Of a stretch of 64,000 bases of DNA, positions 1-63,148 are shown in pieces; position 1 is the stretch's first letter; each line of letters begins with the position of its first letter. Both the position numbers and the translations under genes were made by a program. Source of the DNA: Amoebophrya sp. A120 (Eukaryota; Protista; Dinoflagellata); the NCBI GenBank assembly GCA_905178155.1, contig CAJINV010000005.1, positions 6,041,754-6,105,753 on the forward strand, read 5' to 3'. The notes beneath the pieces are model-generated. The model had not been told where the DNA came from and searched no databases. It saw only the letters and a program-made list of their open reading frames with translations.

Positions 1-3000
1 GGTTGCGGACAGACCGGCAGTGCGCGTAGAGCTGGAATAAAGAGGCCTGAGACTGCTTTGCGGTTGAAACCGGCGCGGATCGATAAGTTGAGCTGGAAGT
101 AGAGGAGGATGGCAAATTACTTTGACGGCCAGCAGGTCGTTGGGAAGTAGTATCCTGTGCAAAAGTATCGTACTCGTACTAATTGCAGCCATGCATGACA
201 GATCTATTTTGTAAGGGAAAACAGCATTACAAATTGCATTTTTGTTCTTGAGAAACAGAAAATTTGTCATGCAGTTTATACTAGTACGATGCTTTTGCAC
301 AGGATAAGTAGATTTTGTTGCCGATTTGCTCTTCCGACTACTTATGGGAGTGTCAGGATCGAAATCGTCAGAGTTGAAATAGTTTGTCATGCATAAAACC
401 GATACCAGTTGGAAGCCCACTTACCGAGCGGCGCATGACAAATTTTGGAAGCACCCGAATCCAATTTGTCATGCTGTTTCGGCGCAGAGGACTGCTTTTG
501 TCATGCTCCTTTAGCATCTCTATCCCAAACCCTAGATAGGCTCACAATCTGCCTCACTTGCCATCTTACCAAGAGAGGCACTTCATGATCATGCCTTGCA
601 TTTTATGCATGACAAAGTATTTCAACTTTGTCGATTTCAAACCTGACGCTTCCATACTACTTGCCTTCGAAATATTTCCGCCGCCAAAGGCAGTTGTTCC
701 CCCGGTCGTGTTCAGCGACAAATTTTCTTTCAACAAAACCGCATCCTCCAGCAACTCCAACGTATCGCAACTATTCCGGTCCCCCTCAATCTGCAGTAAC
801 CGGTGGGAAACGTACCCGCCCCGCTGGATGAAATAATTGATTCTCCGGTTCACAAACGCCGGCGTCCGCAAGAGCGCTCTCTCGCTCCACAATGCGCCGT
901 GGATGTTCGGCGTGTTCTCAGCAGTTGCTGACGTGGAGATGTCGCCTTGTAAACCAGGCTGGGAAGAAGAAGAGGACCCAGACAAAGAGTTCGTCGTGGA
1001 AAAGTAGTTGTAATTTGGAAAGAACCTCGCGGTGAGATTTTTACAATGCGGACACTGGCCGTTTTGCAGCTGGAGTTGCAAAGCCTGAGACCACGCAGCT
1101 GTAGAATTGTTTGTCGTATTCGTGTTCTTACTCACTGGTAGTTGACCATTTTGCTGCATTACCTGAGGCGTTGAGATCATAGATTGTTTGTTCATGATGT
1201 TGTCATTTTTCACCATCATCGAAGCACCAGACGTGAAATTATGATCCTCTTGCAGCTGCGGGGTGCTTGCGAAATTCTCCACCAATTCGTCGCCCGCAAA
1301 ATTGTTCTGGGTTGGTGTCGCCGAAAAATAGTTGATATTCGGCCTGTCGTCACTCAGATTTGTAAAGCCCGAAGCTGCACCTCCAGACCTAGGAACTTCA
1401 TTCCGATGCTGGCCCTCGACGTGATTTTCGTGCTGAAACGCCAACGCTGCCGCGAGAGCCTCTGGGTCATCAGCCGAGTAGGATCGTCGGGGATCCACCG
1501 GAGGAGCGAAGATTGGTCTGTCAACATTATCCGGATCAATTGCACTTGCGCCGCTCAAAGTGGCCGTAATTTCCTCTTCCAAAATGCTGGAGAGCAGCTC
1601 TTGCTCCACCGCCTCACCCTCGGCCGCGAAATGACCGGCGACAGGGCGGTGGTCCCGCTTGGAGTTGTTTCCACTCCGACTCGTCATGTTGGAGACAGAA
1701 GCCCCATTCATTCTGGTAGTCGTGTCACTTCCTCCAGCACCACGGCTAAATACGGACGGACTGGGGGTTGGCAGGACTGATCCTTTCGGTGCAGTGCTGC
1801 GCAGACGAGGATCAACTTCTTCGCGTCTTGTTGTACTGTCTATGTCCACATCGTCGCTGCTGTGCGTGTTTTTCCCTTGTATTCGCTTACTTACAAACTT
1901 CTTTGCGGACGATGGAGCATTGTCCAGTCTACTTCTCGCCTCGGGCCTATTTTCCGTCGCCGGAGAGAAGGACTTCTGGTGTCGAAACAAATTTGCGCGG
2001 TCGCGGTGGGACCGACACTCGAAGATTTGCAGCTGGAGGTAGCCTGGCTGGTCGTGTACAACACTAGTGTTCCCGTTTACTGCCGTTGTTCCCCAGGTAG
2101 CAGCGGCGCCGACGCCCGTCGCTCTTGTTGGGTGTTCGGAGATCTGCGAGCTGCTTTTCTGATTCTGTACTAACTGTGGCTCGTCAAAGTTGTAAGTCGA
2201 TCCAATACTCGCCGCACTACCCTTCTGCTTCAGCCGCGTCAACATCGATAAACCTCCTGCCCCATAATTGCCACCAGAGCCACTCGCAGCTCCTGAAGTT
2301 GTTGAAGCTGTCGTTGTTCTTGCCACAACCGATTGGAAATGCCGCCCGCAATGGAAATGCTTCGCGTCCTTCTGCACGTAAACCTTCGCACCAGCTGTGT
2401 TCACCGCCTGCATTGAGAAAATCTGAATCCCCAGCCGCTCCAAATCCACATCTTCGTGCTGCTTGGTTTCCCGAGTTTCATGCACATCTTTGGGAAACAG
2501 AATGATTTCCCGCCGGTGCAAGTTCTTCGCCGGATTTTTCACCACAGCTTCAGCATTTGCGCCTGTCTTCGAAGAACTGGTAGCAGTACCACCTTGATTT
2601 GCGTTGTGCTTTGGAGAAAGAATCGTCGGATCAAGTTTGATCCCAGCATTGGTGCTCGCTCGCTTCATCTTTCCACCCGACGATGTTGCAGCGCTCGCAG
2701 TATTTCCACTGGAAATAGATGAGGTCACAACATCAGCTGACGTCGAGGAAGCGGATAAATCATTCCCGTCCTCTAATCGCATGTACAGCGGCTCGTTGGT
2801 TAAATTTTCGATTTTAATCAAGTGATCATCCCCCACACGAGACGAGAAGTCCGGTTTTTGCAGTCTTATCTGCAACGCGTTGTGGTTATACGGCAGTCCG
2901 TATCAACTGTAAAAATGTCTGGGTCTGGAAGGTTCTGACAGTTGTCACGCACGTTTTGCATGAGCCATGATGTCCGTGATGCATACCCTAGCAATACAGA

Positions 3001-6000
3001 TTTTTTGAGGGCTTCTTGATGCCTATTCCGCATGACAAATGCCTTCTCAGCGTAGCAAAAATTGCATTCCCTTTGCTACTCATGCAATGCAGATTTTCTT
3101 GGAATCCAAATGCAGCATCACAAGTCGCATTCTTCCAGACCCAGACATTTTTGCACTTGATAGTCCGCTTTTCAGCTGCATATCCTTCGAGATCTCAACC
3201 CGAATCATGTCCGCTGGCGGAAAGATCTTTTTCCTGCGTTGTGGTCTACTACCTTTCGCGCCTGTGGCGGCTTCGTAACCTGCTGCAGCTACACCGCCTT
3301 TGTTCACGGAAGCGCGCGCTTTGATGCCGTCTGTACCTCCGGCGGACCCAGCTCCACTTTGATGTTCGTTCTGCTGCATCAGCTGCGTCACAGACATCCT
3401 CTCCCCAATAGTCGCTGGAAGCAGGCCCGCACTGTAACTGCGGTCACTGCTGGCGAGCACGTTGGTGTCTCGGGTGCCGATGCTGTCTGTGATAGTACTA
3501 CTTCTGTTTTGATGTAGCAGCTTCGTTTGTTCGTGAAAGGCTACATGCTTACTATTTTCCTTTTCGCTCTCGCTTACGCTTTTGTCCCCCAATTGCCTAC
3601 TTTCTTCCTGCTCCGAGTCGTCAAATTTCAGCTGCCTTGGCTGAACTAACGACGAGTCCTTGGATTTGTTATCATCCAGGCTGACGCTGACAGAAACACT
3701 GTTATCATCGTTGGCGGAGGAGGGCTGAGCAGGCTCGTCGTGCAGTTCGTGATCATCCCGTGACGCTTTCGGTTTGCTCCTTGGTCTCTCTGGCGGGAAC
3801 AAAACGTTGTCGTGATGTCGAGTAGTACGACCCGAACCTGGTTTGTCGTTGTGATCATGGAGATGTGCTTCAGTTTCTCTGTCTCTCCCTGACAAATTAT
3901 ACATGGAGCTGCTCAGAGACTGCTTTGTGGGCTGCTGGGTTCGTCGCCCGACACTGCTTTGCGGACTGCTGGGTCTTTGTCTTTCCTCGGCGACACCCCC
4001 GTCGGAGGAAGAGGAGGCTGATTTGCCGCTGCTGCTTGAAGAAGACAATACAGCGTCGTCATCGGACAAAACACTACTCGCTGTTGAGTCGGTGTCAGAA
4101 GTACTACTGCTGCTTTCCGATGAATCCGAAGAGGAAGTGGAGAAAGACGATTTTGATCCACCTCCACGCTTGGCAACTTTCTCCTTTTCGTCTCGAGCAA
4201 ATTTATCCCTTCTAGATGTACTGCCCGTGCTCCCTCCCAGCTGCAATCCCAGTATCAAGTTTCTGTTCGACTCTCCCGCGGACAAGCAGCAAGACCAGGG
4301 GACGTGGAAAGTTCTCTTCAACTCGTGATCATCCAAACCAGCTGGGAGTAACCGAAACATGTCCGTCTCCCACCACAAGCTCGGATCAGACTTGTGACTC
4401 ACCCGCAGTCGACAAAGCGGTGCCTCGTGGATGTCGCAGTCGGCCGCTGGGTTCACCGCGGTGGGGGTCTGATAGGGTAGAGGGATCGGCAACTCGTTTT
4501 GCTTCTTGTTCAACACACGTTTGAGGAGATTTTGCTGATTCAAGTGCTGCTCCTGATAGTGCTGATCGACAGCAGCTGAATGATGCTGCGCGGAAAGAGG
4601 CTGCTGGTGGGCAGAATGAGGACCTGGCGTCTGTGGTGCGCCGCCGTCGTGATTGTTGTGGTGGTGGTCGTGATGTAGCCGAATCTGCATGCTGTTCTGC
4701 GGGTGGTTTATTTGTTGCTGCGACATAATACCGCCCGCCCCGGCGTATCCAGCGATACCGACTGCGCCTCCAGAACCCTGTGCAATTCCTCCGCCACTTC
4801 CTCCCAGCGCTCTCTGAATTGCCGCAGCGGTAGCACCCGTCGCGCCAAATTGGTTCGCCGCAGATGAAGAACTACCTCCAGGAGCAGTGTGCTTCACGAA
4901 GAACAGACAGACGACCAAATCCGGATCGATCTCCTGAGAAATCGTAAACCGATCCACCACCGTCAACACCTTCGTCATTACCAAAGGCGCGGGGTGGTAC
5001 CGCACGCATAACCCTAGCCAAATCGACGGCTGCTCCTGCAGTTTTTGCTTGAGCAGTAGTTTCGCGATCAAGTCGTCTGTTTGCTTAATTTGAAGTTCAT
5101 GCTTCTCCTTCTCTTTGAGCTGTAATTGTTGCAATTTTGCCGCCTCTACTGGGTTTGATGTTGTACCACCTCCGCCCTGACCACTGTTGGTGAGAAGAGA
5201 TGATTCGTGCTGCGCGGAAGATACGAAAGCTTGTCCTGCTCGTTCGACCGCACTGCTACTTACAGAATTGAGTATCATCGACGCCCTATCTTGGCTCGAC
5301 GACGCAGCGAATCTTGGTGGCACCACTACACCGGTGCTACTGCTGCGGTTGGGATTGAGCGTTGCACTTCCTCTTGCTGCGGCAGAAAGATCATCACTGG
5401 ATGACCGGTAGGCATTTTTTGCCGTCTCCACCATCGAGGCTGACATTTTTGGACACCAGAACGCCCGGGCGACGCTCGGGGTCACGACCAGAGACTCTAT
5501 CGGGTGAATCGCGAGTATGAATTTTCCCTCTGGCAAGCACCAAGTGACCAGGGCGAAAACTCGCGTTTCTATCCTTTTCGTTGAAGACGCAGGTGAGTCG
5601 GTTCTTTTGTGATGCGCCGCCCCTGCTGGTAGTGCTGCTTTAATTCCATCATGTGCTTCAACATTTTTATCGTCGCGCTCTCTCCTCGCCGCATGAGCAC
5701 TGTTTCGGGTTAAAATGTCCAGTCTTTCCGGTTCGAAATTGCTATCTTCATCAACCAACACTTCGTCCACATCCCCCGTGATTCGCGGCTCAAAAACTGC
5801 CTTCGGAACCGAAGGTCGGTAGAAAGCGACTTCTTCATCGATCATGTCATTTTCAAAAACCGCCGAATTATCCGCTGGCGTCGGCCCGTCTCGCGGCGTG
5901 TCAAATTCCAACTCGTCTTGTTTCATCCTGTGCAAAAGTATCGTACTCGTTGTAATTGCAGTCACGCATTACAAATTTTTTTCTTAGGGTAAATCCGCAT

Positions 6001-9000
6001 GACAAATTTTATTTCTACTCACGCTGGGGAGATTTCTTGTAATGCTTTTATACGAGTACGATACTTTTGGTGCAGTTCATATGTTTCGAGATTTCCTGCG
6101 AGGCTGCGGACTCCATCTGCTGCTTGCTACTGTCGTTGTCGTCGCTTGAAGACGAAGTGTTCTTATCGCGATGGCGATCTTTCTTGTTATCAGCGGTTGT
6201 CACCGACATAACGGGCATAGACGCAATGTAAACTTCGGACACCAAACCAGTACACCCTGGCTCCCGAAGGAAATCGACCGGGTCTGCGGGGTCGTGGATC
6301 AATCTGTGCTGCTCTTCCAGCTGATTTTCCGTGATGAATAGCCGTTTCAGTCCGGTGGGTGGCAAATAATCACCACGATGATGATAATTCATTCCCAGCA
6401 CACCGCCAACAGTTGTGTTGTGAACAAAACCCTGAAAATCTTTTTCCACTTTCCACACTTCCCCATGGTGCGTTGTACTAGCAAGGAGTAGAAACTCCCG
6501 AGCTTCTGCTAATTCCTCCTCAATGTCAAACTCCTCGTCGAAACCCGGTAAATCCGCGGCTTCTTTCTGGTTTTTCTGCTCCACATCCTTCGGCGAAATG
6601 GGAATGGAGGACTCTGCGTGAGGAACTTGTTGGTCTAGGAGTACGTCCACAGCTTTGATGTTATTGCCCGTAGTTGTGGTTGCAGTAGCAGTGGTCTTGG
6701 GTAGTGTCGTTTCCGTTTCTCCATCCGAGGAACTCCGACCTGCTTTGTAGTTCCTTGCTGCGCGGGTCGTTCTCATCTCCCTCGAGCTTCTTGTCGTACT
6801 CGTGATATCGTCACTCAATTTATACACAATGTGCTCGCGCCGGTCCTGCGCAATAGACTCCAGAAGGACTACTGGCTTGTTGAGGAGCATCGGCAAATCT
6901 TGATACGTGGGCGCAGTAGGACCAGCTTCGGGCAGCTCTTCGCCTGGGGTTTTGTGGTGATGGTGATGATGTTCGTGATGGTGGTGGCCATGACCACCAT
7001 GATGACCGCGGTGTTCTGCATTCTCTTGCTGCAAAAGCAGTTCCATACCAATCGCGTCTCGTCTGTCCTTTACGCTTTCCGTGTGGTACAGAAAGTTCGC
7101 AGCGGCGATTAGCGGTAGGAAGAGATTTTGCTCCATCTTGGTCGTCAAGTTCACCCGTAGCGGTCGGCGGTCTCGTTGCAAATCACCCAGGTCTTTCACG
7201 GAAGGGAGCTGCTTCAAAAAATTATTATCCGCCCTTTCCGTCGGATAAAGGACCGCGTGGGTTTCCTTTTCATCTTTATTTTCAGAAGTGCTTCTGTCTT
7301 TCGCCAGACCCCGGGTTTTGGTTTCTGCCATCTCGGCGCCGAGAAGTTTCGCGTTTGTTTTAGCCCTGGGTATGACAGCGGGGCGAGAGGAAGCGTTAGG
7401 AGGTGGACTTCCAGTTCCGGAGGCAAGATCCTGTTCTTTTCCTATTTTCTGCCGCCCGGGGAGGTCTTCGCTGATATCGAGATCTTCGAGCGGATTCTTG
7501 ACAGGAGCCTCTCTACTTTCTTGAGTTCGATACTCATTTTCTTTCCCATTCACTTCTACTGGGCTTGTAATTCCACTTGGACTCGGACTGACAACACTCG
7601 CTGTTTCCCCAGCGGGGGACGACAACGGCGAAGACAACTCATCCTCCACTACATCGACCACTGCCACCCCAGCTGTTTTCCTTGCCGGCGGTACAAAAGC
7701 ACCAGAAGCTGCGCCCGTCCGCTCATACGCCGCTGTCGCAGTAGCCGTAGCTTGCGCGGTTGACATACCCAACATCCGCAAATACGCACCGCTCTGCGCG
7801 ATCGTCCCCTGTGCCGTCTCCTGAATGTCATTCACGAGCGCTTTCACTTTCGACAAAACCTTCTTCGCTTTGGACTTCTTTTTCTTCACAGTCGTGACAT
7901 GCCCCAAAGTGACCCCCTGGGACCCGAGTTTAAACGTGTTGTAGCTATAGGAAGATTCCGCACCTCTTTTGCACACCAATCTGGAAAACGCGGGCAATGG
8001 CGTCGCGCTTTTGAAGCCGGATAAATGCACCGAAAGGTGCATCTTCGTCCGGTTTTCCAACAAAAACGGCGTGTAGAAGGTGATCCCGTACCTCGTAGCC
8101 TCGATTTCCATGTCCAAAGCCGGAACGGATTTGTGCAAGTGCCGGTGCAAGTAATGCGGTAAGTGATGGTACCGGTGCAGTTTCGCAGACAATTCCTGCA
8201 GAGACAAAAAAGCGCGAGACGGCCGGGCAGCGAAAATGCTTGGGAGGAACACTTTCGAGGCTACTTGTGGCGCCAACGGGGCTCTCGTCGCGCCGTAGAA
8301 ATGGTGGTCGGGGACGAAATGCCTGGAGGTAGTGATTGTAATGTCATCGTTTTCTGGGGATTTGAAATTGTCAACCGTCGCAGCCCCGGAGAAGAGATCA
8401 GCGATCAGAATTTCTTCGCACTCGGTCCAGATGGTGGTGGACGTTTTTGACGTGCTGTTCCTGTTCTTCCCTTTGCTAGCGGTGCCATCGCTACTGGAAG
8501 ATTTGTTTTTTCGCTGCACATCATCTTCACTTTGTTTCTGTGCCGCGTCATTTTCCTTTTCCTGTTCTTTATTCCTGTCCCGAAGCTCACTAGTGGAATT
8601 ATACCACTCGACGAAGACGGAGTCCCGACCCACGTGTCTCACGATCCCGGACCTTGTCGTGTGTAAAGTTTCGTGGTTCGGATTCAAATTTGGCTTGAGC
8701 ATCTGCAACTGCAGTGTCAGTGCGTCTTCGGAGTGGTGTGTTGCGTGATCATCTTTGGACGGCTTGCGAATAGCAGAAACTAGTTGTGTGGTGCTGGCGT
8801 AGTTTGGCTGCAGTGCTGTTGATCGCGCAGTGAAAGTGCTGCCTAAGAACCGTGTTGACCCTCCACCGCCTACCGTTTGGTGCGTCTGTCGCTGCAATTC
8901 CTCGAATTTCACCGAGGCAGATGTGGAGGTACTGCTGTTCCCAGCAAAAGTTGAAAATGCACCACTGGTCCCGCCCTGCAGTTGTGACTTAGTGCCTTGA

Positions 9001-12000
9001 CCAGTGCTATTATTTTCCACAACATCAGTGGTCACGGTCCTTTGCTCGAGCAGACACAACCCGGGCGCAAGCCGACTGTTCCTGTTGGCATCAAAGCCTC
9101 CTGAAAGTGCGGGAATGCTGTTTTGATACTGCACTTGCCCATCAAGAGTTGCATCGAAATCCCCTCCGCCGCCTGCATTGCCAGCCGCTTGCTGTTCTAG
9201 CAAAATCAGGTCGCGCATCCTATCCCCTGAAAATTAACCATTTCCATCCACTTTTTGCATGACAAACACAGATTTCACTTGACGCGTTTCGCATGACTAC
9301 TTGGATGGGAGTGGTTAATTTTCAGGGAATACATCCAGTTTGGCGAAAACAAGCTGCCGCAGTGCCAGGCATCCGACGGCGCGTAGACTTTCACGTACAA
9401 AAACCGTTTCGCAAACGGTAAATGCAGCGTCTCGTTCTCGGATAGAATGAACGCCGATACGTTCAGAACCTGTTCCAAAATCTCATGGTCCTTTTCCGCC
9501 TGAGACTTTTGGAATTTCAAATTTTCAGCCGCCACACCGAAGATTTTTCCAGCAGCTTTGGAGAAGAGGTGGGCAGAGGAGCTTTTTGTTCCACCTCCAC
9601 TTGATGTTCCTGCTACACCTATTTCAGAATCGCCTTGCGGCAGAGAATTCTTACCCGCGCCTCTCAGCGCAAGCACGTCGTCATCGAAGTAGTCGTCGTC
9701 GGAGGAAGTACTGAATTCATCCTCTTTATTCTCATTTAACATCAACTGCGGCCTTGTACTGGAACCGCCTGATAGTACCGCCGTGCTAGTATGAGCGCTG
9801 TCCGTGGATTTGCTGCCTGCGAAGGAAGCTAACTTCGAATTCGTCAAATTCAAACCACTGGAAATATTGCCCACCGCCTTGGCTCGGAGTTGGAGGAAGC
9901 GGCTCCGTTTGTGCTGGGTCTCGGCGCTCGTACCAGCAGCGAATGCGGGTCTACTGTTCCTGGATCTACTCTTTTCTGGGTGGAGGTCTCTATTTCGCTC
10001 GCCAGGGATTGCTAAGTTATCGCCGGAAGTGTCGTAGTCGTCTATGTCAATGATCGCGGCAGCATTACTCAAGTCGTCATTGCTGCCATCGCCGCCGGGG
10101 CTCGTCGGGACAATCCCCGCTGCTTCCGAATCATCTCCGATGTTGAAACCCCTCGTCGTGCCAGTCCTACTGGAACTAGAAAGAGCACTTGCGCTGGCTG
10201 AACCCGCGTAGTGCTGCTCTCGACCCCCTCCCATAAGCGATTGCTGACTAGAAGCGTGCTTCGTTACTCTCCCACCGCCGAACAAATCGGCCGAAACTTC
10301 GTGCGTGGTTGCTTGGTTTTGCTCGGATGAAAGTTGGTTCACCACACGGTCGCCCACGATAGCGGAAGCCATGTCGCTGAAATAGGACCCGAAATGCTCC
10401 GCACGAAAGCGCTGGGAAGAGGTCGTGGAGGCGAAAAGGCGTAGATATGAGGTTTCTTCGGACTCCCAAATGACTCGGTGGTGCACAAAGCTATGATCTT
10501 TTGATGAGTCGCTAGTTGTATTTTTACCATGCTGCCCGCTTGTAGAAGTGCCAGTCTCATTTGCACTACTTCCACTCGCGGCTTGTCCGGTCGTGGTCGC
10601 AGGATTGTTCTCTTTCGCCGGACCAACCACCCCACCGCCTCCCATTCTCTCCCACGAGAAGCACACCCGGTCAATCTTCATCTTGTCTAAACTGCCGTGG
10701 TGACCAGTGCTGTTCTCGAAATTTTTTGCGAAAAAGACCTTTTCCAGCACGTCCGCAGGAATTTTGTTTTTCTCTCTATCCACCGCACCCGGAATCGGCG
10801 ATAATTGCACCACAATTGGAAACGGTAGCTTATTCTTCAACTCCGTGACCCCATTCACATGGACAATCCGCATTTGCGCAATCCCATCTGGAATCCCAGA
10901 CGGAGCGCTGCTCTTCCGGCTAAAGAGATTCGCGCCAGTTTCGAAGTTGTACGAGGCTCTTTTAGGATTATTCTTGCCAGTGCCTCCACCAGTCGCAGAT
11001 GCTCCACTTCCACCTCCATGTCGGTTCAGAACATTTCCAGGTACGTACGCCACGTCGGTACATTCAATATTGCCGACGAGCTTGAGAAATCGAGAAAACA
11101 GAATCGTGAAATTCTTCTTGTCGTCCTGCAGGTTCGTCTCTGCGGCTTTTGCGTTCAACAACTTCCCCAGATCCGTAAAGGGAAGCTCCTCGTAATACAC
11201 CTGTTCATAGCTGCCAAAAATTTTCGTGCGGATAAAACACCGCCTCTCCTTCCGAGCAAACCAGTGAAGCGGGATGTGGGCGTAGCTGTAAGGAGCAACG
11301 TGTAATGTCCAGAGCTTGCTGTCCCACGGGTCTTTGGTTTGATACCGATCTTCGGGTAGAAATTCTTCGGCAGCCGCAGCCTTCTCCTGTTTTATTTTGC
11401 TTTGTAGTCTTATTCCCGCATCTTTTTTACGAGTTGCGCTACTGCCCGGGCTTGTCTGCGGCGAGCTGGTGCCTCCTGCAGGCTTCGCTTGCACCACCTT
11501 CGACGCTGCTGTAGGCGAAGCACCAGCATCTTTGCCGCTATCCCCTGCACCTCCTTTCAGACTGGAAGGAGATGTCGCGCTTGCTGGGCTTTGGGCGTCC
11601 TGCTTCTGCTGTTCCTGGTCTGCAGCACCGCTACTATTTGCGGTGCCGTTGGTGGTTGATGTCGTTGCCCCACCAGTCACGTTCACCAGCTCTGTCCCGG
11701 CTGCCAGAACTAGTTCCGCTAACTGCGTCAGAGCGCTGGGCGCCGGGTGGGGTTCTATCCGCACCTGAAACGGGACTCCGGTGTGGTTGTAAATCATTAC
11801 CGTTGAAGTGATACGCATCGCGACAGTGGTTTTTGTGGTTGGCAGAGTTGTGGAGTTAGAACTGCTCGACGTCGTCCCAGCCAGCATCTTGCTGTTTCTT
11901 CCGTCAGCAAGAACTCTTTCGGTCTGTTCCTCGCTTCTGACACTGGTCGCTTTACTGTAGATCGAGGACTTCGCCGAGAGAAATCTACCACTTTTGTTCT

Positions 12001-15000
12001 GTCTTTGCAGTACTCCTTCCGGCGGACTGCTGCTTGTTCTGTCGATGTCCTCAATGGCGAGCATTCTCGAAGTTACCGGGAGAACACCAGATAAACCCGG
12101 GTGGAATTGTTGATGACAAAGTCCCGCTGCTTGTACCAGAACGACAGGACCGAGGTCCGCGAGAGTGTAAGCCCTTGGGCAGTGGTAATTCAACCTCCCC
12201 AATTGCATGCTAGGTTTGCACTGCAACCCGCCAATCTTGCTGATCGAGATAAACTCCTGCTCATTAACCGTTGGTGACGTTGCTTGGAAAAACAGCGTCG
12301 TCAGCGGCTGCTCGTTTTCATGCTGGTGCTGCTGTCTGCTTTTGCGGTTGTAGTAGCGCGGCCTGCTGTGCAAAGCGGTAGTGCTTCGCAGATTTCTGGT
12401 GGTTCGGCGAGCTGGCATGAAACCCGAGGGGCCAGTCGTTTTAGTTTTCCTTTGTCGAGAGGCGGAGGCCGTTTCTAGCGCTTTTCCTGTTTTGTTCGCA
12501 GTTCCTGTGACATCTGCTGCAGTCTCGCTTCGTGATTTTTCCGCCGCAGCCTCTGCTTTCGATTTCTCCCCCGGTGTAGCAGCAGCTGTAGCAGGATCCG
12601 CTGCAGGAGCCGTCTGCTTAGAAGCTTGTTCTGATGTTTTGTTCTGATGTTCATTGCCAGGGGGCATGTCAATCACGACATAATCGCCTTGCTCCTTTCC
12701 CTCACCGCCCCCGCCAGGGCTGTTTTCGACTTCCTCTTTGATTTTCGCGAGAGAAGTTCGCCTCCTCTTCCCAACAGCAGCCGGGGATTGCGTTTTATTC
12801 ACCGTAGTTCGTCCTACGTGTGGAGGCACAAAAATCCCGCCGACCTTCTTCCCAATGGCGAAAATTCGTCTTCTCGGCGTGCTAAACATCCTGCGCCACC
12901 GGTCCTCTTGAGTGCGAGTTCGAATCCCGCGAGTGGACACCGCCGCAGCGCCGAAGGTCGAAGATGCAGTATTGTTCAGATGAGCAGATGGGCGAAAGGC
13001 CGCAGTTCGAGGCAACAGCCTCGTCCTTCGCTTTCTAGATGTTTGGTCATGATCTTGCGCTCTGGTGATCATTTTACTCGATGCTGCCGAAGTAGAGCTG
13101 AGATCTATCCTCGCTCCGGACGAGCTTCGTGGGGGCAGTTTCTTCCCCATGACCGTAGCAGCCGATGTGTTTATGCTGCCTGTGGAAAACCTTCCCGGTA
13201 TTGTTCCAGCCCCCATCCCCATCTTGCTTCGGGTTCGACTCCCACTAGAACTCGCTGCTGTCCGGGCGTAATACGACTTTGCTACTGAAGAGGCAGCACC
13301 TGCGCGTGTTCTGTGAAGATCTGCTGAAGAAGAAGCCGCACCAGAAGTTGCAGCTCGTCCCGACGCTCCATCTATCCCACCAAACATCCGCTGCGCCTTG
13401 TGCAGTGCCCTGATATCGTCCAACAGCGAGTCAATCACACCAACACCGAGCGACAAGTCAAACTTCCCGTGCCGCCCAATTCGGTAGTGGGAAAACGTCT
13501 CGTCACTATTGAACCACTGAACGGAGCAAGTTCTAGAGTCTTTCCGAACCGCGACAACTTTGCCCTTTCCAAAAGTGTGCTGGTTTTCGTCCAGCTGCGT
13601 GTGGTCAAGGTTTTCAAAATCGTCCAGAAAATTCCAACTGTTCGTAGTGTTCCGGCCAGAACCCAAGCGACTGCTGGGCCGGAGGTACGTAAAGGGGCGC
13701 TGCGTAGTTGGTCTTCGTCCCCCTGCTGTGGATGCGCGGGGCAAAAAAGTTGTGGACGAACCTACTGGCCTCCTGCCGCTGTTGCCGTAGATACTTTTCG
13801 AGGACCCGGCTCCTGGAAACAAAGCTGTAGTTGCACGCCCTGTAGTTGACGGCGCTCGTTCCGTGATGCCGATGCTGTATTGTGACTTTAAAAATTCGTC
13901 TGGGGAAACAAACGTGATATCCTCATTTCCCCAGCACCAATCAGAGTTCGAGAGTTTCCCCTCGCTTGTCATCCCACTCACCGCTCGCTGCACGATCAAG
14001 CCAACTTTGCAGTTGTGAACGGTGACTAGATCTTTGTGCAGCGCGACGTCCCCAATCTGCATCAGCTCGAAGCCCTTTTTGAGCTGCGGGAAGTACTGCG
14101 GGTCTTCCGTAGCGATGGTTAAGTGTTGCAGGTTTCTTCTCCTCTTGTACTTGAAAACCGTTCTGTACAGCGGTATAGAAGTTTCTGGCAGTACTGACTG
14201 TCGTGCTGCACCATCTGCTGGAGGATTCCTGCTCAGGCTGCCGCCCTTGATCTCGAAGGTAGAACCTGCTATTGTTGTCCTTTTCGCAGCAGCTGGGAGT
14301 ATCGATTTCCTAAAAGCGTTCGCAGACTGTTTTCTGCCAAGAAGACCACCACTACTACTTCCAGCTACAAGTACACCCGACGTCGCACCAACACTTTGGC
14401 TCCTAGATGAACTGTTGTAGCTCGTCGTGGGCCCAGAGGTGCTGCCTCCAAATGCCCGCGCCGCTCGGTTCAACGAAGCCGCACGTCTTATGTTCGAGAA
14501 AATGTTCTCTGTCGCAGACGTGAGTTTCTTCGCTGCCCGGCCCTGCTTCGACCACGATAGAGGCTGGTGTTTCACTTCCATCGAAGTACTTTTACCTGTG
14601 GCACCGACACCACTACTAAGCCGTGACAGCGCCTTTGTAGTCCATCCCTGCTCGATTTGCTGTTGCGTTGCGACCCGGAAATCGTAGAAATCTTTCTGTA
14701 GATTTCGATTCGACCCACCCTCTAGATCCGCGGCTTCGGTCAGCACGAGCTGCTTGTTCTCATCTTCTTCGAAACTATTCGTGGTGATATCAAATGTAAA
14801 AATGTCTCCTGGGTCTGGAAGAATGCAAGATCTGTCATGCATAATTCGCATGACCCATGATGCCTGTAATGCATGACCTAGCATCGTAGACTTTTAGAGG
14901 GCTTTCAGATGCACGCTCCGCATGAGAAATGCCCTGTCCGTGTAGCACAAATTGTGCCCCTCTTGCTGGTCATGCAATACAGTTTTTTTTGGAATTCAAA

Positions 15001-47457: not shown

Positions 47458-49950
47458 CTAATTGACGACCGCCGGTATGCATGTGTTGTCGTCGGCATTG
47501 TACTATCAACTGCAAAAATGTCTGGGTCTGGAAACTTGTGATGCAAGAAAGGGAGTAGTGAACTCACTATAATGCGCTGCCAAGCATGACAAGTTTCTTC
47601 CATGGCTCTGAGTTGCGTACTCCGCATGAGAAACCGCGTTTTTGCATGACAGGGAGGAGGAGCTCTTCGCGGCCATGCAACGGAGAGCTCAGAGTCATGC
47701 CAGACAAGCATGACAAATCTCGCAATCTCCCAGACCCAGACATTTTTGCATTTGATATGTACTGGCACGCGCCACCGGACTCTTGCACGCACTATACCTG
47801 GGAAAGAAATATGTCTGGGTCCTCTGGAAGATGAGAAGTGCAAGGCTCTTTGTCAACATGATCGATGGTCAACTACATGATCTCGTGGTGGACCACACAG
47901 CTGGTCGGGAATGGACACAGAAGCATGATCACAGGTTATTTTTCTGCTCGAGCTTCCGAGTAAAATCAAACTAGGAACCCTAAACGACCTAAACCCTGAA
48001 ACCCTGGGAGAACCGGCCGCGACGGACGCCCATCTTGCCACGTGCGTCCCTACATGCATAGTTTTTTGAAAAAGAAAAGCAAAAAGAGAAGGATGAAGAA
48101 AAAAATCGAGCGAGGCGAGCGAATCTCTCGGCGGCCTATGAAGGACAATCCAGTGGCCAGCCGGAAGTCCAACACAGTAGGGCTTCAGCTGCGCTGGCTC
48201 TAAACCTGTACATAGTACAGACCTACGTACGTATGCGCCACACCTTCTCTCATCCGAGTACAAGACTCGTCCGAAGCTCAAGCAAAGCGAGAAAAAAGAA
48301 AGACGCAAGCGAGGCGCGATTCTACTCGGGCATGCGAATCAGGTAGAAGAAGGAAACCGAAAAAGGCGAGCTTGTCCGAGGACCGAAAAGGCATATCTCA
48401 TCCTCACAAAGCCGAAACTCAAATCCCTCGGCTTCACAAGGCACATGTAAACGAGCACGAACAAGACGACGACTGCGATCAGCCCAAAGGCGAGACGTTT
48501 TCTGCTCGAGCTTCCTAGTAAAAATGCCTATAATCGTCCCGCATGATGAGAAAGAGAAATTCGCCCATTACGCGTAGCAAGGCAGTACCATAATTACGCA
48601 AGAAGATTTTCGGCGCTCATCATGCAACACAGATTTATTCATTTTTGAACGGTCCAGCAGACGCAGCGAGCATGACCAAAAGTTGCATCCTTCGAGAAGA
48701 TCCAGCCATCATATGTGCAATTTGCATATGCAGCCCATATTGACGGGATCATATTTTTGCTCCAGCGCGGCGCAGTCCATGCACTGCTTCGCGTCAAAGT
48801 CCCACTTCCAACTTCCGTAGTTGGCGGGGTCCATTTTCAACGGTTGGTCTGACCAAGCACACTTTTGCTCGGTCGCAGCATTGCACGCATCCTTGTCTGC
48901 CAACTGGCGGCACGCGGTGCTTTGTCTGTCCCCGCCGCCGCCGGCCGAACCCTCTCCATCCGTTATCAAAATGAAAAATGATCCCCCCTCCCCATATCAT
49001 GCTGGATCTGTGTACACAAATGCGCTTTGTATTGCAGGAAGGCACTGCGGCCAGATACCCAGCCTAAGCAGAGGCGTCTGGGTCTAGTTGTTCAGCATGG
49101 CAAACGGCTCCCCTTTAGGCCAAACAGCATGACAAACGGCTTCCATAATGGGGCGGCAGCTTCTGCCCTTGTCTTCTTGCAACACAAATGTGATCTGTGG
49201 CCTCAAATCAGCAACACAAATATTCGGAAACGTACCTTTTCAATATGGGGAGGGGGAGTTTTTCCTTTCGATATCCGCAGGGGCTCCGCTACTCGGCTCC
49301 CGCGGTGGTTCCTCGGCGCCGGCGCCCGCCGTGCTCCCGGTTCCCCCGTGGCTTGAACCTCCCGCGTGGTCGCGAGTGTCAGTCGTCGTCGAATTGCTCG
49401 AGGCGCCGGATGAATCCGTACTATCACCGGAGCAACCAACCTTTTAATATCCAGTGCAAAAGTATCGCTCTCGTACTAATTGCACTTATGCATCCCGTTC
49501 CCAAGCAAGGTATTAAATCAGCATGACAAATTCCAACTGTCATCATGCTGAGCGAATTTGTATTGCAATCACTACTAGTACGATGCTTTTGCAGTGCATA
49601 GCTTTTCCTTCTTGGCGAAAACCTTCTGCAAGAAAGCCTTTTTTCCGGACGGGCGAACATGCTGGTTCAACGAGGACATGGAGCTTTGTCCTTGCTTCAA
49701 AGGACGAGGGACGACCGGGACGGCGTGGCGCCCGTTGTGCTTGTGCGCAGACACCACCTGATGTGTGTGTTGAGTAAGTAGTTAGTTTAATGTTGGGGAT
49801 GAGATTAAGATGACCAAGAAGGGGCGATCTACAAAATTTTTATTTTGTCCCCGCGTGTAGTAGTGCTTGAAAGGGGATCGGGATTGAGGTTGACAGTAAG
49901 CGTATGCGTAGCGCACAACAAATTGCAAAAGCCAAAGTTCTCGTCCTCAT
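47458..49950 (-). CDS. Small secreted protein with a G/S-rich linker and Cys-rich C-terminus (reconstructed)
   Basis: Signal-like MRTRTLAFAICC|VVSAH across a putative GC-AG intron (49758-49914). Removing four introners gives ...ACRQLADKDACNAATEQKCAW...CMDCAALEQKYDPVNMGCVQESGGACQYNADDNTCIPAVVN*. Confidence 0.6.
47504..47757. mobile_element. Introner family C
   Basis: Family C TIRs; DR tgtac; junction CQYNAD. Confidence 0.9.
47793..48728. mobile_element. Enlarged, degenerate family-C-like introner carrying a nested insert
   Basis: Left end tatacctgggaaagaaatatgtctgggtcctctggaag; right end cttcgagaagatccagccatcatatgtgcaatttgcata; DR cgcac/tgcag; removal restores the frame. Confidence 0.6.
47940..48523. 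mobile_element. Nested insertion flanked by about 26-bp direct repeats, with telomere-like repeats at one end
   Basis: ttttctgctcgagcttcc(g/t)agtaaaa at about 47940 and 48498; aaccctaaacgacctaaaccctgaaaccct at 47976-48005. Confidence 0.6.
48964..49273. mobile_element. Introner family I
   Basis: tatcaaaatgaaaaatgatcccccctccccatat / atatggggagggggagtttttcctttcgata; DR tccgt/tccgc; junction PADGEG. Confidence 0.85.
49448..49600. mobile_element. Introner family A
   Basis: Family A TIRs; imperfect DR ccttt/gcttt with 3 extra bases on the left. Confidence 0.8.
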
Positions 49951-54436: not shown

Positions 54437-57400
54437 ATTTTTCAGCCCCTCAATCTCCTCCTCCCGCCGTTTCTGCCGTTCCTCAAACGAATCCGCCTTG
54501 GTTTCACACTCCTCCTTAATTTTCGCCACGTATTCCAAAGCCGCGTCCTCTATCCAGGAGAAAACACCCATCCCCATCCACTTTGTCATGCAAAACATGC
54601 ATAAGCTCCAGTGTTTGCCATGCAAAAAATGGATGGGGATGGATGTTTTTCCTGGATATCCTCCGCCTTCACCGCATTGGTTTCATCCTGCTCCGCGTCG
54701 TTGATTCCCGTGTTTAACTGTTCAATTTCTCCCTGGTAACCCTTAATCGTCTGCTTCGTCGTGGCCATATGGAAGCGTCAGGATTGAAATCGTCAAAGTT
54801 GAAAATAAAATTTTTGTATTGCATAAAACGCAATGCACAAGGTGCCTGTCTTGCAAGGGTGGCAAGCGAGGCCGACTGTAAGCCTGTTTGGGGTCTGCGA
54901 TAGAGCTGCTAAAGCAGCATAACCAAAGCAGTCTTCTCTGTCCAAGCAGCATGACAAATTGGATTTCAATACTGCCAAAATTTGTCATGCGCCACTTGAA
55001 ACCTGTGTTCCAACTGGCATCCATCTGATGCATGGCAAATCATTTCAACTTTGACGATTTCAATCCTGACAGATCCATATGCCAGTTCGACTTTGTAATC
55101 CTGCGTTTTCTGTTCAAACTGGGACTTCAACGACTGTTCTAAATTCTGCACGTCAATTTTGGACTTCGCGAAATCCGCCTCCGCGGTTTCCAACAGCGCG
55201 ATCACCGAATCGGCCACGTTGGTGGTGGACACCCGGGACTTCGTACTCGTTTGCATCTCTGTGTTAGAACTTTCCTGCAACAACAAGGCCGATTCCGTCC
55301 CCTCGGCGAAGTACTCCTGCAAAACCTGGATCGCCTTCCCGCACGCTTCTTCGTTCGCCATCGCGGTCGCGATCTCCTCCTCGTTTTGCTTCTTGTTTTT
55401 CGCCCGCATGGCGGTGATTTGCTCGACATCCGCGTTGATCTCTTCGATTCTCTTCTCCAGTTGTGAAATCGTTTTCTCCAATTTCGGATGCATGGCAAAA
55501 GTACCGTACTCGTAGAGGTAGAAATCGCAGCTATCGTGCCCATGCATCACAGATCTATCTTGGTGCGCTAACCAGCATTACAAATTTCCTTTTTCATGCT
55601 GACCAAATTATTTGTGATGCGATTTCTACTAGTACGAAAAAAAAATTTTGGAAGGCATATTTCGTCTTGTCTGCCATCGCTTTCTCTTTCCGCATGGTGA
55701 GTTTCTCGCGTTCCTGCTGCTTTTTCTTCAAGTCCTTCTGCCCCTTCGCAGATTCTTTTTTGCAGTACGCGTTCTTGTCGTTTTCTTCCGCCGTTTATGA
55801 GAGTGCACAAGAACTCCCCCCCCCCTCGTCATTTGTCACGCAAAATACCAACCCCAAGCGCTGCTGCGTGGTACTGTTTGCATGACAGATTCCGGAAACC
55901 CAAACAGTACTACAATAGACGCATGAACTTGTCATGCACAGGCTCCACAGGTGGTGGGGGTGTCTGTATTGCTTTCCATACAATTACAAATGAGGAGGAG
56001 GGGGAGTTGCACACTGTCATACCATTTCTTTCTCTAATTTCCCAATCATGTTCGAGATCATCTGTTTCACCTTCCCAAACGGGTCCTCCGCAATGCGGAT
56101 GGAGAGCTGGTACAGTTGCGTTTGCGTTTGGCTCGTCTGTTTGCTACTATTTCCATTTGATGTTCTTCCGCTTTGCTCCTGCTGCAGCCACTTCGCAGCC
56201 AGTTTCTGCAGGTAGATGCTCGCAGCGGTCTGTCGCTGCAGCTGTTCGGTTGTCGACTTTATTTGCGCTTTGGTGCCGCTAGTGAGTTGTGTTCTTGCCT
56301 GGACTTGCAGGAAAGATGATACCGCAGCGCCTGCTAGTTGATGTCCATCAAGAACTACATCACTACTGCTTTCTTGCAAGAAATCGGGTGCATTCTGCAA
56401 AATCTCCATTGCCGTGTTGAGCGCCTTTAACTCCGCAGCGAAATCCTCCTGTTCCTCGTGGAACTCCTTCGTCGCAATCCGGCACTTATGCTGTGCAAAA
56501 GTATCGCACTCGTATAAATGGCGCAGATCTTGCATTACAAATTTCTTTATCAAGGCAAATCAGCATTACAAATTTTATTTCTCATGCTAAGGAAATTTGA
56601 ATGCATTTATACGAGTGCGATACTTTTGCAGTTCATAGCACTTCGTTTCCGAGTCCTCCAATGTTTTCAAACACTTTTTGACTTCCTCCTCCAACACCGC
56701 AATCTTCTCTTCTGCCTTCGCCAGCTTCTCTTCATTCGTCGCTTTTTTCGTTTTTTCCCGCTCGATCAGCGTTTTAAGATTTGCGACGTTGTTGGTTAGT
56801 TGTTGAATCAACAATTGCTTCTTCATCGAGTTCTCGGACCATTCCTGTTGCCTTTGGTTCTTACTCGCGATTTCGTCTTGCAGGAACTTTTCAAACAGGT
56901 CATATCACAGGAAAAAGTGTTACCGTTAACGGAATAGAATTTGTGATGCAGCAATGCATCACAAAACGTGTCAGAATTTGTCATGCGTGGCATGCATATT
57001 GGGCTACATTTGTGATGCCTGACTGCAATCTGTGACAACCGTTAACGTTAACACTTTTTCTTGCGATAAGTCAATGACCCCACTCATCCCGGAATCCGTG
57101 TCCAACCCTTTATCGACCGCTTGGGGCTGCTGGAGAAGTAAAGCGCTGTACTTTTCCTGTTTTTTCAGCGAAACAGACGATGCTTTGGTGATCGCGGAGA
57201 GAGCGACTTGGACCGAATCTAATGCTTTCTCCTGGAGTTGCAGGAAGGATTTCTTTTCGCCAGATCCCCCTTCTTCCTCCGACGTACTACTTTTCGCCTG
57301 CTTCATCGTCAGCGCCCGAATCGCCCGTCGCACCATGTCGATGGTTTGGCTGGACTCTTTGTCCAGTTTTGCAAACTCTTGCTTCTCTTCCCCGAAAAGC

Positions 57401-59082: not shown

Positions 59083-60548
59083 TCATACCCAGTTATGCGC
59101 CCCGTCGTAGTCGATCGTCATTTCGCTTTCCTTCCTCCCCAGTAGCGTATTTGCGGCTTTGCTCTTGATGTAAAAGTAGATGAAGTCCGATAATATGAGC
59201 AGGTTAAAAAACTCCGTGGCAGTCGCCATGTTGTGGTTGTGTGGTGACCAGCCGTTCACCGTTGGGAAGAGCAGCCAGAAGGTAAGGGTGCAGAATTTTG
59301 CTATACCCTGGAACATGAGGAAGTCACCGAGAAGCACCGGAATCTTCTTTGTCTTGTACAGCATCAGGAGTTGGGGGAGGACGGACATAATCTGTAAGTG
59401 GTTTTTTGGTGGTGGGAATCATTCGGACTGAGAAACAGAAATTGAAAGCAGCAAAAACTTTTCGTTGTTGCATGATAGAAACAGACACAGATGAATGTCT
59501 TTTCAAAAAGGAAGTAGAGTATAAAAACTTCGTACATCTGCATGACAAAATCACTTCAAATTTCTCCGTATAAGTACTATACCTGAACAATCTCGCAAAT
59601 GCTGCAGAGCATGCACAAAGAGAACGCGAATGGCACGTCCCCATCCGCCGTGATGATCGAGCACCTCGTGACTGACCAGAAACAGGCCACAATCGCGGAA
59701 AACACCAGCAAGCCCCCGAACTGGACGAACAACGTGTCGTGGTATTGTTTGGGTAAAATCCGCTTCAGAAACGCCCGGCCGAAGACGTCATCCGCAAAAT
59801 CTTCTTTAATCGAATTACTGACACAATACAAAGCAACGGTGGTGACCACCCCCATAAACACCGCAAACCCGTCCACGATCAAGTAGATGAACGGGGGAAA
59901 AACCTCCGGGGAATAGTGGATCCCGAAAATGTGACTGCAGGAATGGAGACACCGGCCCGCGGCGAACCCGAGAAAAGACTGGAGGGACACACCCCTCGGC
60001 CCGCGTCGTTTTACCGAATGGAAGACGCAGTAGAAGGCGAAAAACCCGCAAACGTCGGAGACCAGGATGAGAAAGTCGAGGAAAAGGAGGCCGAAAAAGG
60101 ACGGTGGCGGCTCGTCTTCCTCCTCATGCTGCTGTTCTTGCTCCGCTGGCTTTTCTGATGTTGCTGGTGTTGCTTTGCCGAGAAGCTGATGCGCCTGGTA
60201 GAGTATCACATGCAAAAATGTCTGGATCTGGAAGATTGCGAGATTTGTCATGCTTGTTTGGCATGACAAAAAAGTTTGTGATGCGTGTCGAAGAAGAGAC
60301 ACTTCCGCCTGTCATGCAAAAACGCAGCTTCTCATGCGAAAAACGCAACACAAAGAACTGCAGATTTTTTTCATGCTTGGCTCTGCAGCATTACAGAGCA
60401 CTCACTATTTTTCCCAAGACAGCACTACAAGTTTCCAGACCCAGACATTTGTACAACCCATATAGAGGGTGATCAGGAGGGGGAGAACCCGCTGGGCGAG
60501 CCGCCTGCTCGTCGTGGCAGTAGAGATCATACTGCGGGGGGAGAGCAT
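59083..60548 (-). CDS. ERD2: ER lumen protein-retaining receptor (KDEL receptor/ERD2-like)
   Basis: Multi-TM protein with RGVSLQS, SVLPQLLML and LILSDFIYFYIK motifs; GT-AG intron 59392-59582; one introner. Confidence 0.85.
60204..60462. mobile_element. Introner family C
   Basis: DR tagag; junction ITLYQAH. Confidence 0.9.
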
Positions 60549-62868: not shown

Positions 62869-63148
62869 TCAAGATAGACACCTTGAGTGCACTATGAACT
62901 GCAAAAGTATCGCACTCGTATAAATGCATTAGCATTACAGATTTCCTCAGCATGAGAAACATAATTTGTCATGCTGTTTTACCGTGGGATGGAGATTTGT
63001 AATGCATAGCTGCAATGGGTACGAGTACGACACTTTTGCAGTTCATATGCACCACACCACTCCCGTGATCCTCGTATTCGTTCGGCCAAACGCACATCTT
63101 GGTGAAATTTGGCATGCCAGCCAGCACCGCAGCGCCCTTCCACACCAC
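62869..63148 (-). CDS. 3'-terminal coding segment of an actin-related protein (rest of gene upstream or off window)
   Basis: After a cag acceptor and removal of one introner: VVWKGAAVLAGMPNFTKMCVWPNEYEDHGSGVVHSRCLS*, resembling the actin C-terminus [37 protein letters not shown]. Confidence 0.8.
62893..63047. mobile_element. Introner family A
   Basis: tatgaactgcaaaag...cttttgcagttcata; DR tgcac; junction VVHSRC. Confidence 0.9.

What the first reader, a model, noticed from the sequence alone, without database searches (positions are those of the whole stretch)
151..63047. One internal motif, GCAT(G/T/C)ACAAA, shared by about 10 otherwise unrelated introner families
Seen: families A-J differ in length and TIR sequence, yet each carries several copies of gcatgacaaa, gcattacaaa or gcatcacaa and their reverse complements, often about 35-45 nt inside each end (e.g. 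193 and 263; 383 and 607). The motif is rare in exons and intergenic DNA. Inference: it is a common recognition site for one trans-acting factor, such as a transposase or a dedicated splicing/excision protein, so TAT/ATA ends plus this motif would form the system's code.
Basis: partly seen in the sequence, partly recalled or inferred. Interest (0 to 1): 0.85.

Follow-up and report, generated by a model that had tools for sequence, protein, structure and literature searches.

The report
Shared DNA tag on jumping introns
In a marine parasite, hundreds of small mobile DNA pieces from unrelated families sit inside genes, are cut out of the RNA and share one 10-letter tag in either direction, which likely binds a single DNA-binding protein that may help the cell remove them.

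Summary
The motif is real: 89 exact GCATNACAAA against 0.9 by chance, 82 of them inside 45 TAT…ATA elements (10 families, 5-bp target duplication). It recurs in 426 of 429 elements from another assembly that were picked without it. The elements are the published Amoebophrya A120 introners; RNA-type contigs skip 5 of them as element plus one duplication copy. I did not find the shared motif in print.

It is read without regard to transcript strand. Families whose sites all point one way lie in exons in both orientations, so a single-stranded RNA splice signal is unlikely. Sites lie 30-50 bp or more inside the ends on a ~16-bp lattice. Each family also has its own terminal box, the likely transposase site. 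In exonic copies the box decays about neutrally (0.95 of interior) and the motif does not (0.66), which hints that the motif still works after insertion.

Best reading: a double-stranded DNA site for one common factor that helps the insert be removed from transcripts (0.4). Rivals: transposition only (0.27), chromatin or elongation (0.2). No transposase or binding protein was found, and a few elements lack intact sites.

The parts
151..306 (.). Family A element (about 150 bp). Other members: 5924-6081, 24252-24401, 27292-27444, 30882-31030, 32078-32234, 36826-37012, 37760-37911, 39694-39842, 39882-40031, 49448-49600, 55487-55659, 56487-56637, 62893-63047
146..150 (+). 5-bp target-site duplication of the first element, left copy (right copy 307-311)
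166..180 (+). Family-specific terminal box (end positions 16-30; short repeated half-sites), mirrored at the right end; inferred transposase site
193..202 (+). Shared motif, one mismatch, pointing inward
224..233 (+). Shared motif, exact, 31 bp after the first site
263..272 (-). Shared motif, exact, 35 nt inside the right end
343..656 (.). Family B element (about 310 bp); sites at 383(-), 433(+), 465(-), 497(-), 607(+). Other members: 16111-16418, 25645-25953, 34868-35173, 37345-37661, 54768-55079
2901..3162 (.). Family C element (252-288 bp). Other members: 14788-15057, 21267-21524, 25198-25460, 36144-36407, 39368-39655, 40224-40475, 42219-42470, 47504-47757, 60204-60462
9221..9331 (.). Family D element (about 110 bp; all sites point one way). 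Other members: 31143-31255, 54305-54397, 54551-54658
15110..15331 (.). Family E element; second member 55796-56021
18039..18275 (.). Family F element; second member 36473-36720
22642..22797 (.). Family G element (links to A at loose thresholds); second member 32338-32490
29820..30029 (.). Family H element; other members 31671-31879, 33354-33563
48964..49273 (.). Family I element (single copy in the window)
56903..57068 (.). Family J element (single copy)
39363..39655 (-). Skipped in RNA-type contigs: C element plus one duplication copy. The imperfect duplication places the 5' cut 0-3 nt before TAT
39689..39842 (-). Skipped in RNA-type contigs: A element plus one duplication copy
39877..40031 (-). 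Skipped in RNA-type contigs: A element plus one duplication copy
40219..40475 (-). Skipped in RNA-type contigs: C element plus one duplication copy
42214..42470 (-). Skipped in RNA-type contigs: C element plus one duplication copy; DNA-type contigs run into both junctions
39041..39194 (-). Ordinary GT-AG intron removed in the same contigs; has no motif (control)
2..36012 (-). Host gene: 10,354 stop-free codons once 23 elements plus 5 bp each are removed

Best explanation
GCATNACAAA occurs in several copies, in either direction, inside TAT…ATA transposon-like inserts that are cut out of the RNA together with one copy of their 5-bp duplication; it is likely a double-stranded DNA site for one protein common to all families, which likely still acts after insertion and would help the insert be removed from the transcript.

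Steps. (1) Shown: inserts with terminal inverted repeats and 5-bp duplications lie in exons in both orientations, and removal restores the pre-insertion sequence. (2) Inferred: family-specific DDE transposases, probably integrase-like, read TAT…ATA and a family-specific box at end positions 16-30 and move the inserts. (3) Shown: the motif begins about 30 bp or more inside the ends, has a free 5th base, follows ~16-bp spacing steps and has no strand bias. (4) Inferred: a separate common protein (host-encoded, or a domesticated TnpA-like accessory protein) loads on these arrays. (5) Indirectly supported: the sites stay under selection in exonic copies after insertion while the box decays. (6) Untested: the bound protein recruits or times the non-canonical splicing activity as the polymerase passes, with the cut placed by the terminal bases and hairpin.
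For: Universality. 45 of 45 window elements and 426 of 429 elements from 127 loci of another assembly, chosen only by ends, duplication and inverted repeat, including families absent from the window. Long derivatives of 631-972 bp keep only ends and subterminal sites around unique DNA.

Strand independence. 76 sense and 90 antisense sites in the window. Of 284 exon-called copies, 42 have only antisense, 27 only sense, 212 both and 3 none. A 40-copy family whose consensus sites all point one way lies 14:14 relative to the gene, 12 uncalled. Isolated private changes are 0.018 in sense and 0.015 in antisense sites, both below interior 0.025.

Spacing. Best period 16.5-17 bp, p=0.002 against a family-level null; repeated in 7 new-family representatives, p=0.011-0.014 at 16-16.5 bp.

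Separate box. End positions 16-30 differ by family and resist inherited change as the motif does (shared variants 0.039 and 0.036 against 0.129 interior).

Selection in place. In 320 exon-called copies, isolated private substitutions are motif 0.016, box 0.024, interior 0.025. Motif/box is 0.69 (95% over families 0.58-0.84) and box/interior 0.95 (0.83-1.07). Context-corrected ratios are 0.63 for the motif, 0.93 for the box and 0.88 for motif position 5; motif is below box in 14 of 19 subfamilies. Inner sites of uncalled copies are at the interior rate. The direction is the same in window and external copies.

Removal. 5 elements are skipped in RNA-type contigs. Six elements in RPB1 give gap-free alignment to a homologue with +5 and gapped alignment with +2 or +8.
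Against: No binding protein or transposase was found (202 ORF scans against Pfam).

The site is not strictly needed. 4 of 474 elements have no good site, 3 of them exon-called, and 2 of those would break the frame if retained. An 873-bp element with intact ends has only one weak site and lies in a 276-codon frame. Expression of these genes is not shown.

The in-place signal is indirect. On the set ascertained by end identity, motif and box had the same private rate (0.019 and 0.020). In uncalled copies they are equal in conserved columns (0.020 and 0.019). Exon-called against uncalled copies differ little for the motif overall (0.020 and 0.024). Only 5 clearly non-coding copies were usable. 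Families with more sites are more depleted, not less (rho -0.65, p=0.03), the opposite of simple redundancy. Lower mutability of bound DNA would look the same.

No 10.5-bp phasing was seen in new families. Nothing here separates a splicing role from a chromatin or elongation role.
Confidence: 0.4

Rival explanations
1. Transposition only. The motif is a subterminal site for a transposase or a TnpA-like accessory protein shared by the families and matters only when an element moves. Splicing depends on the ends and hairpin alone.
For: Inherited variants are far more depleted than private ones (ratios 0.25 and 0.67). Subterminal position and both orientations match known transposase or accessory sites (Lemi1 abstract; TnpA passages). 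Long derivatives keep only terminal sites. Elements without intact sites lie in open frames. One search showed no motif-box difference.
Against: The box, equally conserved across lineages, decays at 0.95 of the interior rate in exonic copies while the motif stays at 0.66. An element with intact ends and duplication has only one weak site. In CACTA elements subterminal motifs differ between families (PMC2613891 passages), whereas here families with different boxes share one motif.
Confidence: 0.27
2. The common DNA-binding factor acts in place on chromatin or transcription (anti-silencing, or passage of the polymerase through the hairpin-forming insert) and not on splicing.
For: Explains strand independence and in-place constraint equally well. 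TnpA-type proteins regulate transcription through cognate motifs (bioRxiv 10.64898/2026.08.24.746577 passages; PMC2613891). The motif also clusters in intergenic DNA at 61.5-64 kb.
Against: No methylation, chromatin or expression data here. The open problem in this organism is the removal of introns without fixed dinucleotides and with no detected U1 (PMC7789003), which this reading leaves unexplained.
Confidence: 0.2
3. RNA-level signal: a splicing protein or small RNA reads the motif in the pre-mRNA, or motif and anti-motif pair to fold the intron.
For: Opposed copies pair in predicted folds of 3 of the 5 RNA-verified introns. Many tolerated variants are A-to-G.
Against: No strand bias in number or constraint. 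42 exon-called copies carry only the antisense form and one-direction families insert both ways. No motif-motif pairing in 2 of 5 verified introns, and no excess of wobble-preserving changes in stems (p=0.52). No Rfam match in the window.
Confidence: 0.08
4. No function: the motif is a relic of common descent of the families.
For: Families share TAT and an A-run at positions 11-15; A links to G, and a few masked pairs align above shuffles.
Against: 113 of 120 masked pairs do not exceed shuffles. The motif is 3-4 times more conserved across lineages than its surroundings, while its own 5th base is not.
Confidence: 0.03

Closest known systems
Amoebophrya A120 introner elements (Farhat et al. 2021, PMC7789003; Gozashti et al. 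2025, PMC12130899)
   Same: These are those elements. Ends of TAT + 7 nt + A-run, short direct repeats, non-canonical splicing. A window protein is 99% identical to an A120 record. 18 of the 22 A120 rows I saw (of 58) in the 2025 table are 'TIR DNA' with superfamily unknown, with similar lengths.
   Different: The passages, section 16 and supplement text I saw describe only terminal and direct repeats. They report no shared internal motif, no lattice and no box-motif split. The 2021 paper argues against general transposase mobilisation. Figures were not visible.
En/Spm (CACTA) TnpA with subterminal repeats; Lemi1/Emigrant MITE
   Same: Works like: short repeated subterminal motifs beyond the terminal repeat, bound by a DNA-binding protein; in En/Spm it is separate from the transposase and also affects transcription of genes holding the insert.
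   Different: Termini and duplication differ (TAT, 5 bp against CACTA, 3 bp). CACTA motifs are family-specific and bound TnpA blocks transcription; here one motif spans families with different boxes and seems favoured inside expressed exons.
IS3EU/GingerRoot, IS481EU and Ginger2 integrase-like DNA transposons
   Same: TA..TA termini (IS3EU/GingerRoot), TAYGG in fungal IS3EU, TNT..AYA (IS481EU), 4-5 bp duplication (Ginger2), capture of host fragments. One A120 introner family has integrase-like homology.
   Different: The duplication is 5 bp, not 6 (IS3EU/GingerRoot) or about 4/15/25 (IS481EU); termini are not TG..CA; no transposase was found.
Euglenid non-conventional introns; Fritillaria non-canonical introns
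   Same: MITE-derived, non-canonical junctions; in euglenids terminal pairing and repeats at the junctions (review PMC11282704 passages).
   Different: The passages seen describe no internal, strand-independent motif; the excised form (lariat or circle) is unknown here.

Membership tests
Amoebophrya A120 introner elements | Inverted ends starting TAT, 7 variable bases, then 3 or more A | tested here: met
   42 of 45 window elements have TAT…ATA; A at positions 11-13 in 828, 863 and 892 of 948 ends, with B, E and F types deviating
Amoebophrya A120 introner elements | 3-5 nt direct repeats at the exon boundary | tested here: met
   5 bp; perfect in 37 of 45
Amoebophrya A120 introner elements | Removed from RNA at non-GT-AG sites | tested here: met
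   5 skipped in RNA-type contigs of one study; 3 of 45 have any GT/GC..AG register on the minus strand
MITE (non-autonomous TIR DNA transposon) | Short, TIR, fixed-length duplication, many copies, either orientation | tested here: met
   element bins far deeper than unique DNA in a DNA-type run
MITE (non-autonomous TIR DNA transposon) | Cognate autonomous element or transposase | tested here: inconclusive
   none in 202 ORF scans covering about 0.74 Mb; whole genome not held
IS3EU/GingerRoot | TA..TA termini | tested here: met
   definition
IS3EU/GingerRoot | 6-bp duplication | tested here: not met
   5 bp by flanks, frame, RNA and RPB1 alignment
IS3EU/GingerRoot | Integrase-like DDE transposase of that clade | not testable with these tools
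   no transposase in hand
IS481EU | TNT..AYA termini | tested here: met
IS481EU | Duplications of about 4, 15 or 25 bp | tested here: inconclusive
   5 bp in the elements catalogued; the searches required a 5-bp repeat, so longer classes were not sought
Ginger1/Ginger2 | TG..CA termini | tested here: not met
CACTA / En-Spm | CACTA termini and 3-bp duplication | tested here: not met
CACTA / En-Spm | Repeated subterminal motif in both orientations (works-like feature) | tested here: met
CACTA / En-Spm | Separate DNA-binding protein binds the motif | not testable with these tools
   needs biochemistry
Single-stranded RNA splicing signal | Present and constrained on the sense strand only | tested here: not met
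U2-type spliceosomal intron | GT/GC..AG ends | tested here: not met
   3 of 45
Euglenid-type non-conventional intron | Excised as a full-length circle without lariat | not testable with these tools
   contigs only

The most novel reading that the evidence does not exclude
Introns in this organism are defined on DNA: one sequence-specific protein bound to GCATNACAAA arrays marks any insert, in either orientation, for precise co-transcriptional removal. It would stand in for the undetected U1 step and give unrelated transposon families a shared licence to invade exons.
Probability: 0.3. Interest if true: 0.93.

Novelty: new variant of a known kind. Interest (0 to 1): 0.7.

Why it matters
How Amoebophrya removes tens of thousands of introns with no fixed end dinucleotides and no detected U1 snRNA is an open question, and the genome paper argued against general transposase mobilisation (PMC7789003). 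The motif gives a concrete 10-bp bait for finding the missing factor. It also gives a three-tier anatomy (terminal TAT, family box, shared motif) whose tiers behave differently after insertion and can be mutated one at a time. Even the modest reading names cis-sites for an unclassified TA-ended, 5-bp-duplication transposon group. The bold reading would be intron recognition through a DNA-bound protein.

Tried and rejected
Transposase search. Pfam on 32 window ORFs, 10 ORFs near long candidates and 160 external ORFs of 260 aa or more found host genes only. Long TAT…ATA candidates either enclosed several short elements or carried unique non-coding-looking DNA. Viral collection: two end patterns gave 0 hits. 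A motif pair gave 43 loci, 1 with any element-like frame, taken as chance. Genome search by locus handle was not possible and no whole genome is held.

A25 comparison.

RNA. The 2026 raw RNA runs covered only element ends from other loci. No listed holder is on record as RNA; the contigs used are judged to be RNA because they also lack a GT-AG intron.

Other tests that gave nothing or were dropped. No Rfam match. No wobble-preserving bias in stems. No 10.5-bp phasing in new families. No target-sequence preference. Deciding which duplication copy is exonic from codons was mostly uninformative: 32 synonymous, 34 non-synonymous, 1 stop; an earlier 4-case signal did not survive frame calling. The masking was incomplete and its residual densities are not used. 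One search stopped with an error after printing the rows cited. My note that the 873-bp motif-poor element was in non-coding DNA was wrong. Earlier scan findings: none. An RBFOX-type GCAUG reading (recalled) was rejected because position 5 is free.
Full report
SOURCE. A window protein is 99% identical to a record named Amoebophrya sp. A120, and the element ends match the published description of A120 introners (PMC7789003). No whole genome was held.

OBSERVATION. GCATNACAAA occurs 89 times against 0.90 in shuffles. I catalogued 45 elements of 93-317 bp: 42 with intact TAT…ATA, 37 with a perfect 5-bp duplication, 6 with one mismatch and 2 eroded. They form 10 families, with both orientations in most multi-copy families. 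82 of 89 exact hits are inside them, and all 45 have a site at up to 1 mismatch. With motif and ends masked, families mostly do not align: 3 of 55 pairs were flagged and 7 of 120 exceeded all shuffles, each including the within-family control. A and G link at looser thresholds. The outermost site is 30-50 nt inside at 75 of 90 ends and 656 of 858 external ends; only 2 external ends have one closer than 30. It points outward in some families and inward in others.

THE ELEMENTS ARE INTRONS REMOVED WITHOUT TRACE. Removing element plus 2, 5 or 8 bp, but no other length from 0 to 8, restores long minus-strand frames. With +5, positions 2-36012 give 10,354 stop-free codons across 23 elements. In contigs of four RNA-type runs (one study, at most two samples; RNA is the tool's guess), 5 of the 10 elements in 36000-44200 are skipped as element plus one duplication copy. 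An ordinary GT-AG intron is missing from the same contigs; the other 5 elements had no bridging contig. Contigs of a DNA-type run continue into the junctions at unique depth, so this is RNA-level removal and not an empty allele; that run may be the window's own source. In RPB1 from the second assembly, 6 of 10 elements tested lie in alignable sequence, and each gives a gap-free match with +5 and a gapped one with +2 or +8. Only 3 of 45 have a GT/GC..AG register.

OUT-OF-SAMPLE TEST. Its relation to the window's strain is unknown. Of 459 candidates, 429 of up to 500 bp were kept after resolving overlaps, without using the motif; 426 have at least one site and 414 at least two, including families absent from the window. 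The profile is GCAT(G/C/T)A(C/G)A(A/G)(A/G), 14 bits. Long derivatives of 631-972 bp keep ends and subterminal sites around unique DNA, one of them inside RPB1.

DNA OR RNA. A codon-based caller gave 39 minus-strand calls, no plus calls and 6 blanks in the window. Among 284 exon-called copies, 212 carry both motif directions on the sense strand, 42 only the antisense form, 27 only the sense form and 3 none. A 40-copy family with consensus sites at 31, 62, 110, 143, 192 and 223, all one way, lies 14:14 relative to its gene. Private change rates do not differ between sense and antisense sites (p=0.19). Predicted folds pair motif with motif in 3 of 5 verified introns, and stems show no wobble bias. 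Spacing favours 15-18, 31-33 and 48-50 bp. The best period is 16.5-17 bp (p=0.002, noticed in these data first), repeated in 7 new-family representatives (p=0.011-0.014, 44 pairs), with no 10.5-bp signal there. I infer a protein site on double-stranded DNA.

WHOSE SITE. End positions 16-30 form a family-specific box of short repeated half-sites; in element 34868 the box is changed in the same way at both ends. Box and motif resist inherited change equally (0.039 and 0.036 against 0.129). On a homology-found set (549 copies; those with at least 3 of 5 duplication matches, in subfamilies of 8 or more, were used), 320 exon-called copies give isolated private rates of motif 0.016, box 0.024 and interior 0.025. 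Motif/box is 0.69 (0.58-0.84) and box/interior 0.95 (0.83-1.07), and the gap survives context and conservation controls. Duplication mismatches, 0.045 per pair, agree with a post-insertion rate of 2-3%. The box therefore behaves as a transposition-only site and the motif as one still in use.

AGAINST THAT READING. On the set ascertained by end identity, motif and box were equal. In uncalled copies they are equal overall. Only 5 non-coding copies were usable (ratio 1.14, 0.69-2.52). More sites go with stronger depletion. Bound DNA might simply mutate less. 4 of 474 elements lack a good site, two of them exon-called and frame-breaking if retained, and an 873-bp element with one weak site lies in a 276-codon frame. 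The site is therefore not an absolute requirement for moving or, if those genes work, for removal.

WHERE STRAND DOES MATTER. In exon-called copies the first T at the 5' end is changed in 0 of 304 and its mirror, the last A, in 9 of 303 (p=0.002), mostly to G. Position 3 shows the reverse, 5 against 0 (joint p=0.0005). Uncalled copies show 0 of 306 at position 1 where about 4.5 were expected, which I cannot explain. One RNA case puts the 5' cut 0-3 nt before TAT and one stop-codon case at least 1 nt before it. The cut may thus fall inside the duplication, on two cases only.

MECHANISM AND ODDS. A common dsDNA-binding factor that helps removal from the transcript 0.4; transposition only 0.27; chromatin or elongation role in place 0.2; RNA-level signal 0.08; relic 0.03. 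No factor was found in 202 ORF scans.

KNOWN SYSTEMS AND WHAT I SAW. PMC7789003: abstract, passages of sections 10-11, all of section 16, supplement text searched (no GCATGAC or TGTCATGC), figures unseen, including the clustering figure S25, which may bear on novelty. PMC12130899: passages, supplement searches, 22 of 58 A120 rows of one table. Passages only: PMC9860276, PMC10045372, PMC12730594, PMC6839031, PMC11282704, PMC2613891, bioRxiv 10.64898/2026.08.24.746577 (96). Abstract only: PMC1636448. Roy et al. 2023 was seen only as a reference. The elements are A120 introners and MITE-like. They are not filed under IS3EU/GingerRoot (6-bp test failed), Ginger or CACTA, though they work like a TnpA-plus-transposase design. 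I found no report of the motif in searches. One search for the motif strings hit 179 papers; of the 20 listed, none concerns this organism by title. The library lacks most subscription papers.

VERDICT. Real, general across families, and apparently unreported. Function after insertion is suggested, not shown. Interest 0.7.

Noticed in passing
window 2-36012 (-): A gene of at least 10,354 codons, running off the window, with 23 introners and no other interruption of frame; Pfam gives only sub-threshold MIB_HERC2 and DUF7484 hits.
   Followed up: no
element termini, window and L001-L127: Strand-dependent constraint at the ends: 5' first T never changed (0 of 304), 3' last A changed in 9 of 303, reverse trend at position 3; possibly the RNA-level signal. 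Uncalled copies do not fit.
   Followed up: partly
window 39363-39660; L078 element starting 3436: Two imperfect duplications together place the splice cut 1-3 nt before TAT, inside the duplication.
   Followed up: partly
L051 13016-13888: 873-bp TAT…ATA element with perfect 5-bp duplication, its own box repeated in an internal ~140-bp palindrome and only one weak motif site; inserted in a short repeat within a minus-strand open frame.
   Followed up: partly
L035 11017-11988; L073 765-1461; L023 3862-4492: Family-C ends around several hundred bp of unique sequence (pack-type derivatives); the first lies in RPB1.
   Followed up: partly
window 63396-63844: Three ~100-bp repeats about 175 bp apart, each with a one-mismatch motif site; a decayed family-A fragment follows at about 63880-63960.
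   Followed up: no
window 49679-50669 and 52799-53747: A ~1-kb duplication at 71% identity outside the long open frames.
   Followed up: no
L038 4890-5016: Family-D copy with disrupted sites that keeps the host frame open when retained; a possible exonised introner.
   Followed up: no
window 41453-45105 (-): Aspartyl/asparaginyl beta-hydroxylase domain gene with one RNA-verified introner; the A25 homologue is only 39% identical over the matched part.
   Followed up: no
window 34876-34955 and 40444-40475: 2026 raw RNA runs under the same species label hold element ends with other flanks but no unique window sequence.
   Followed up: no
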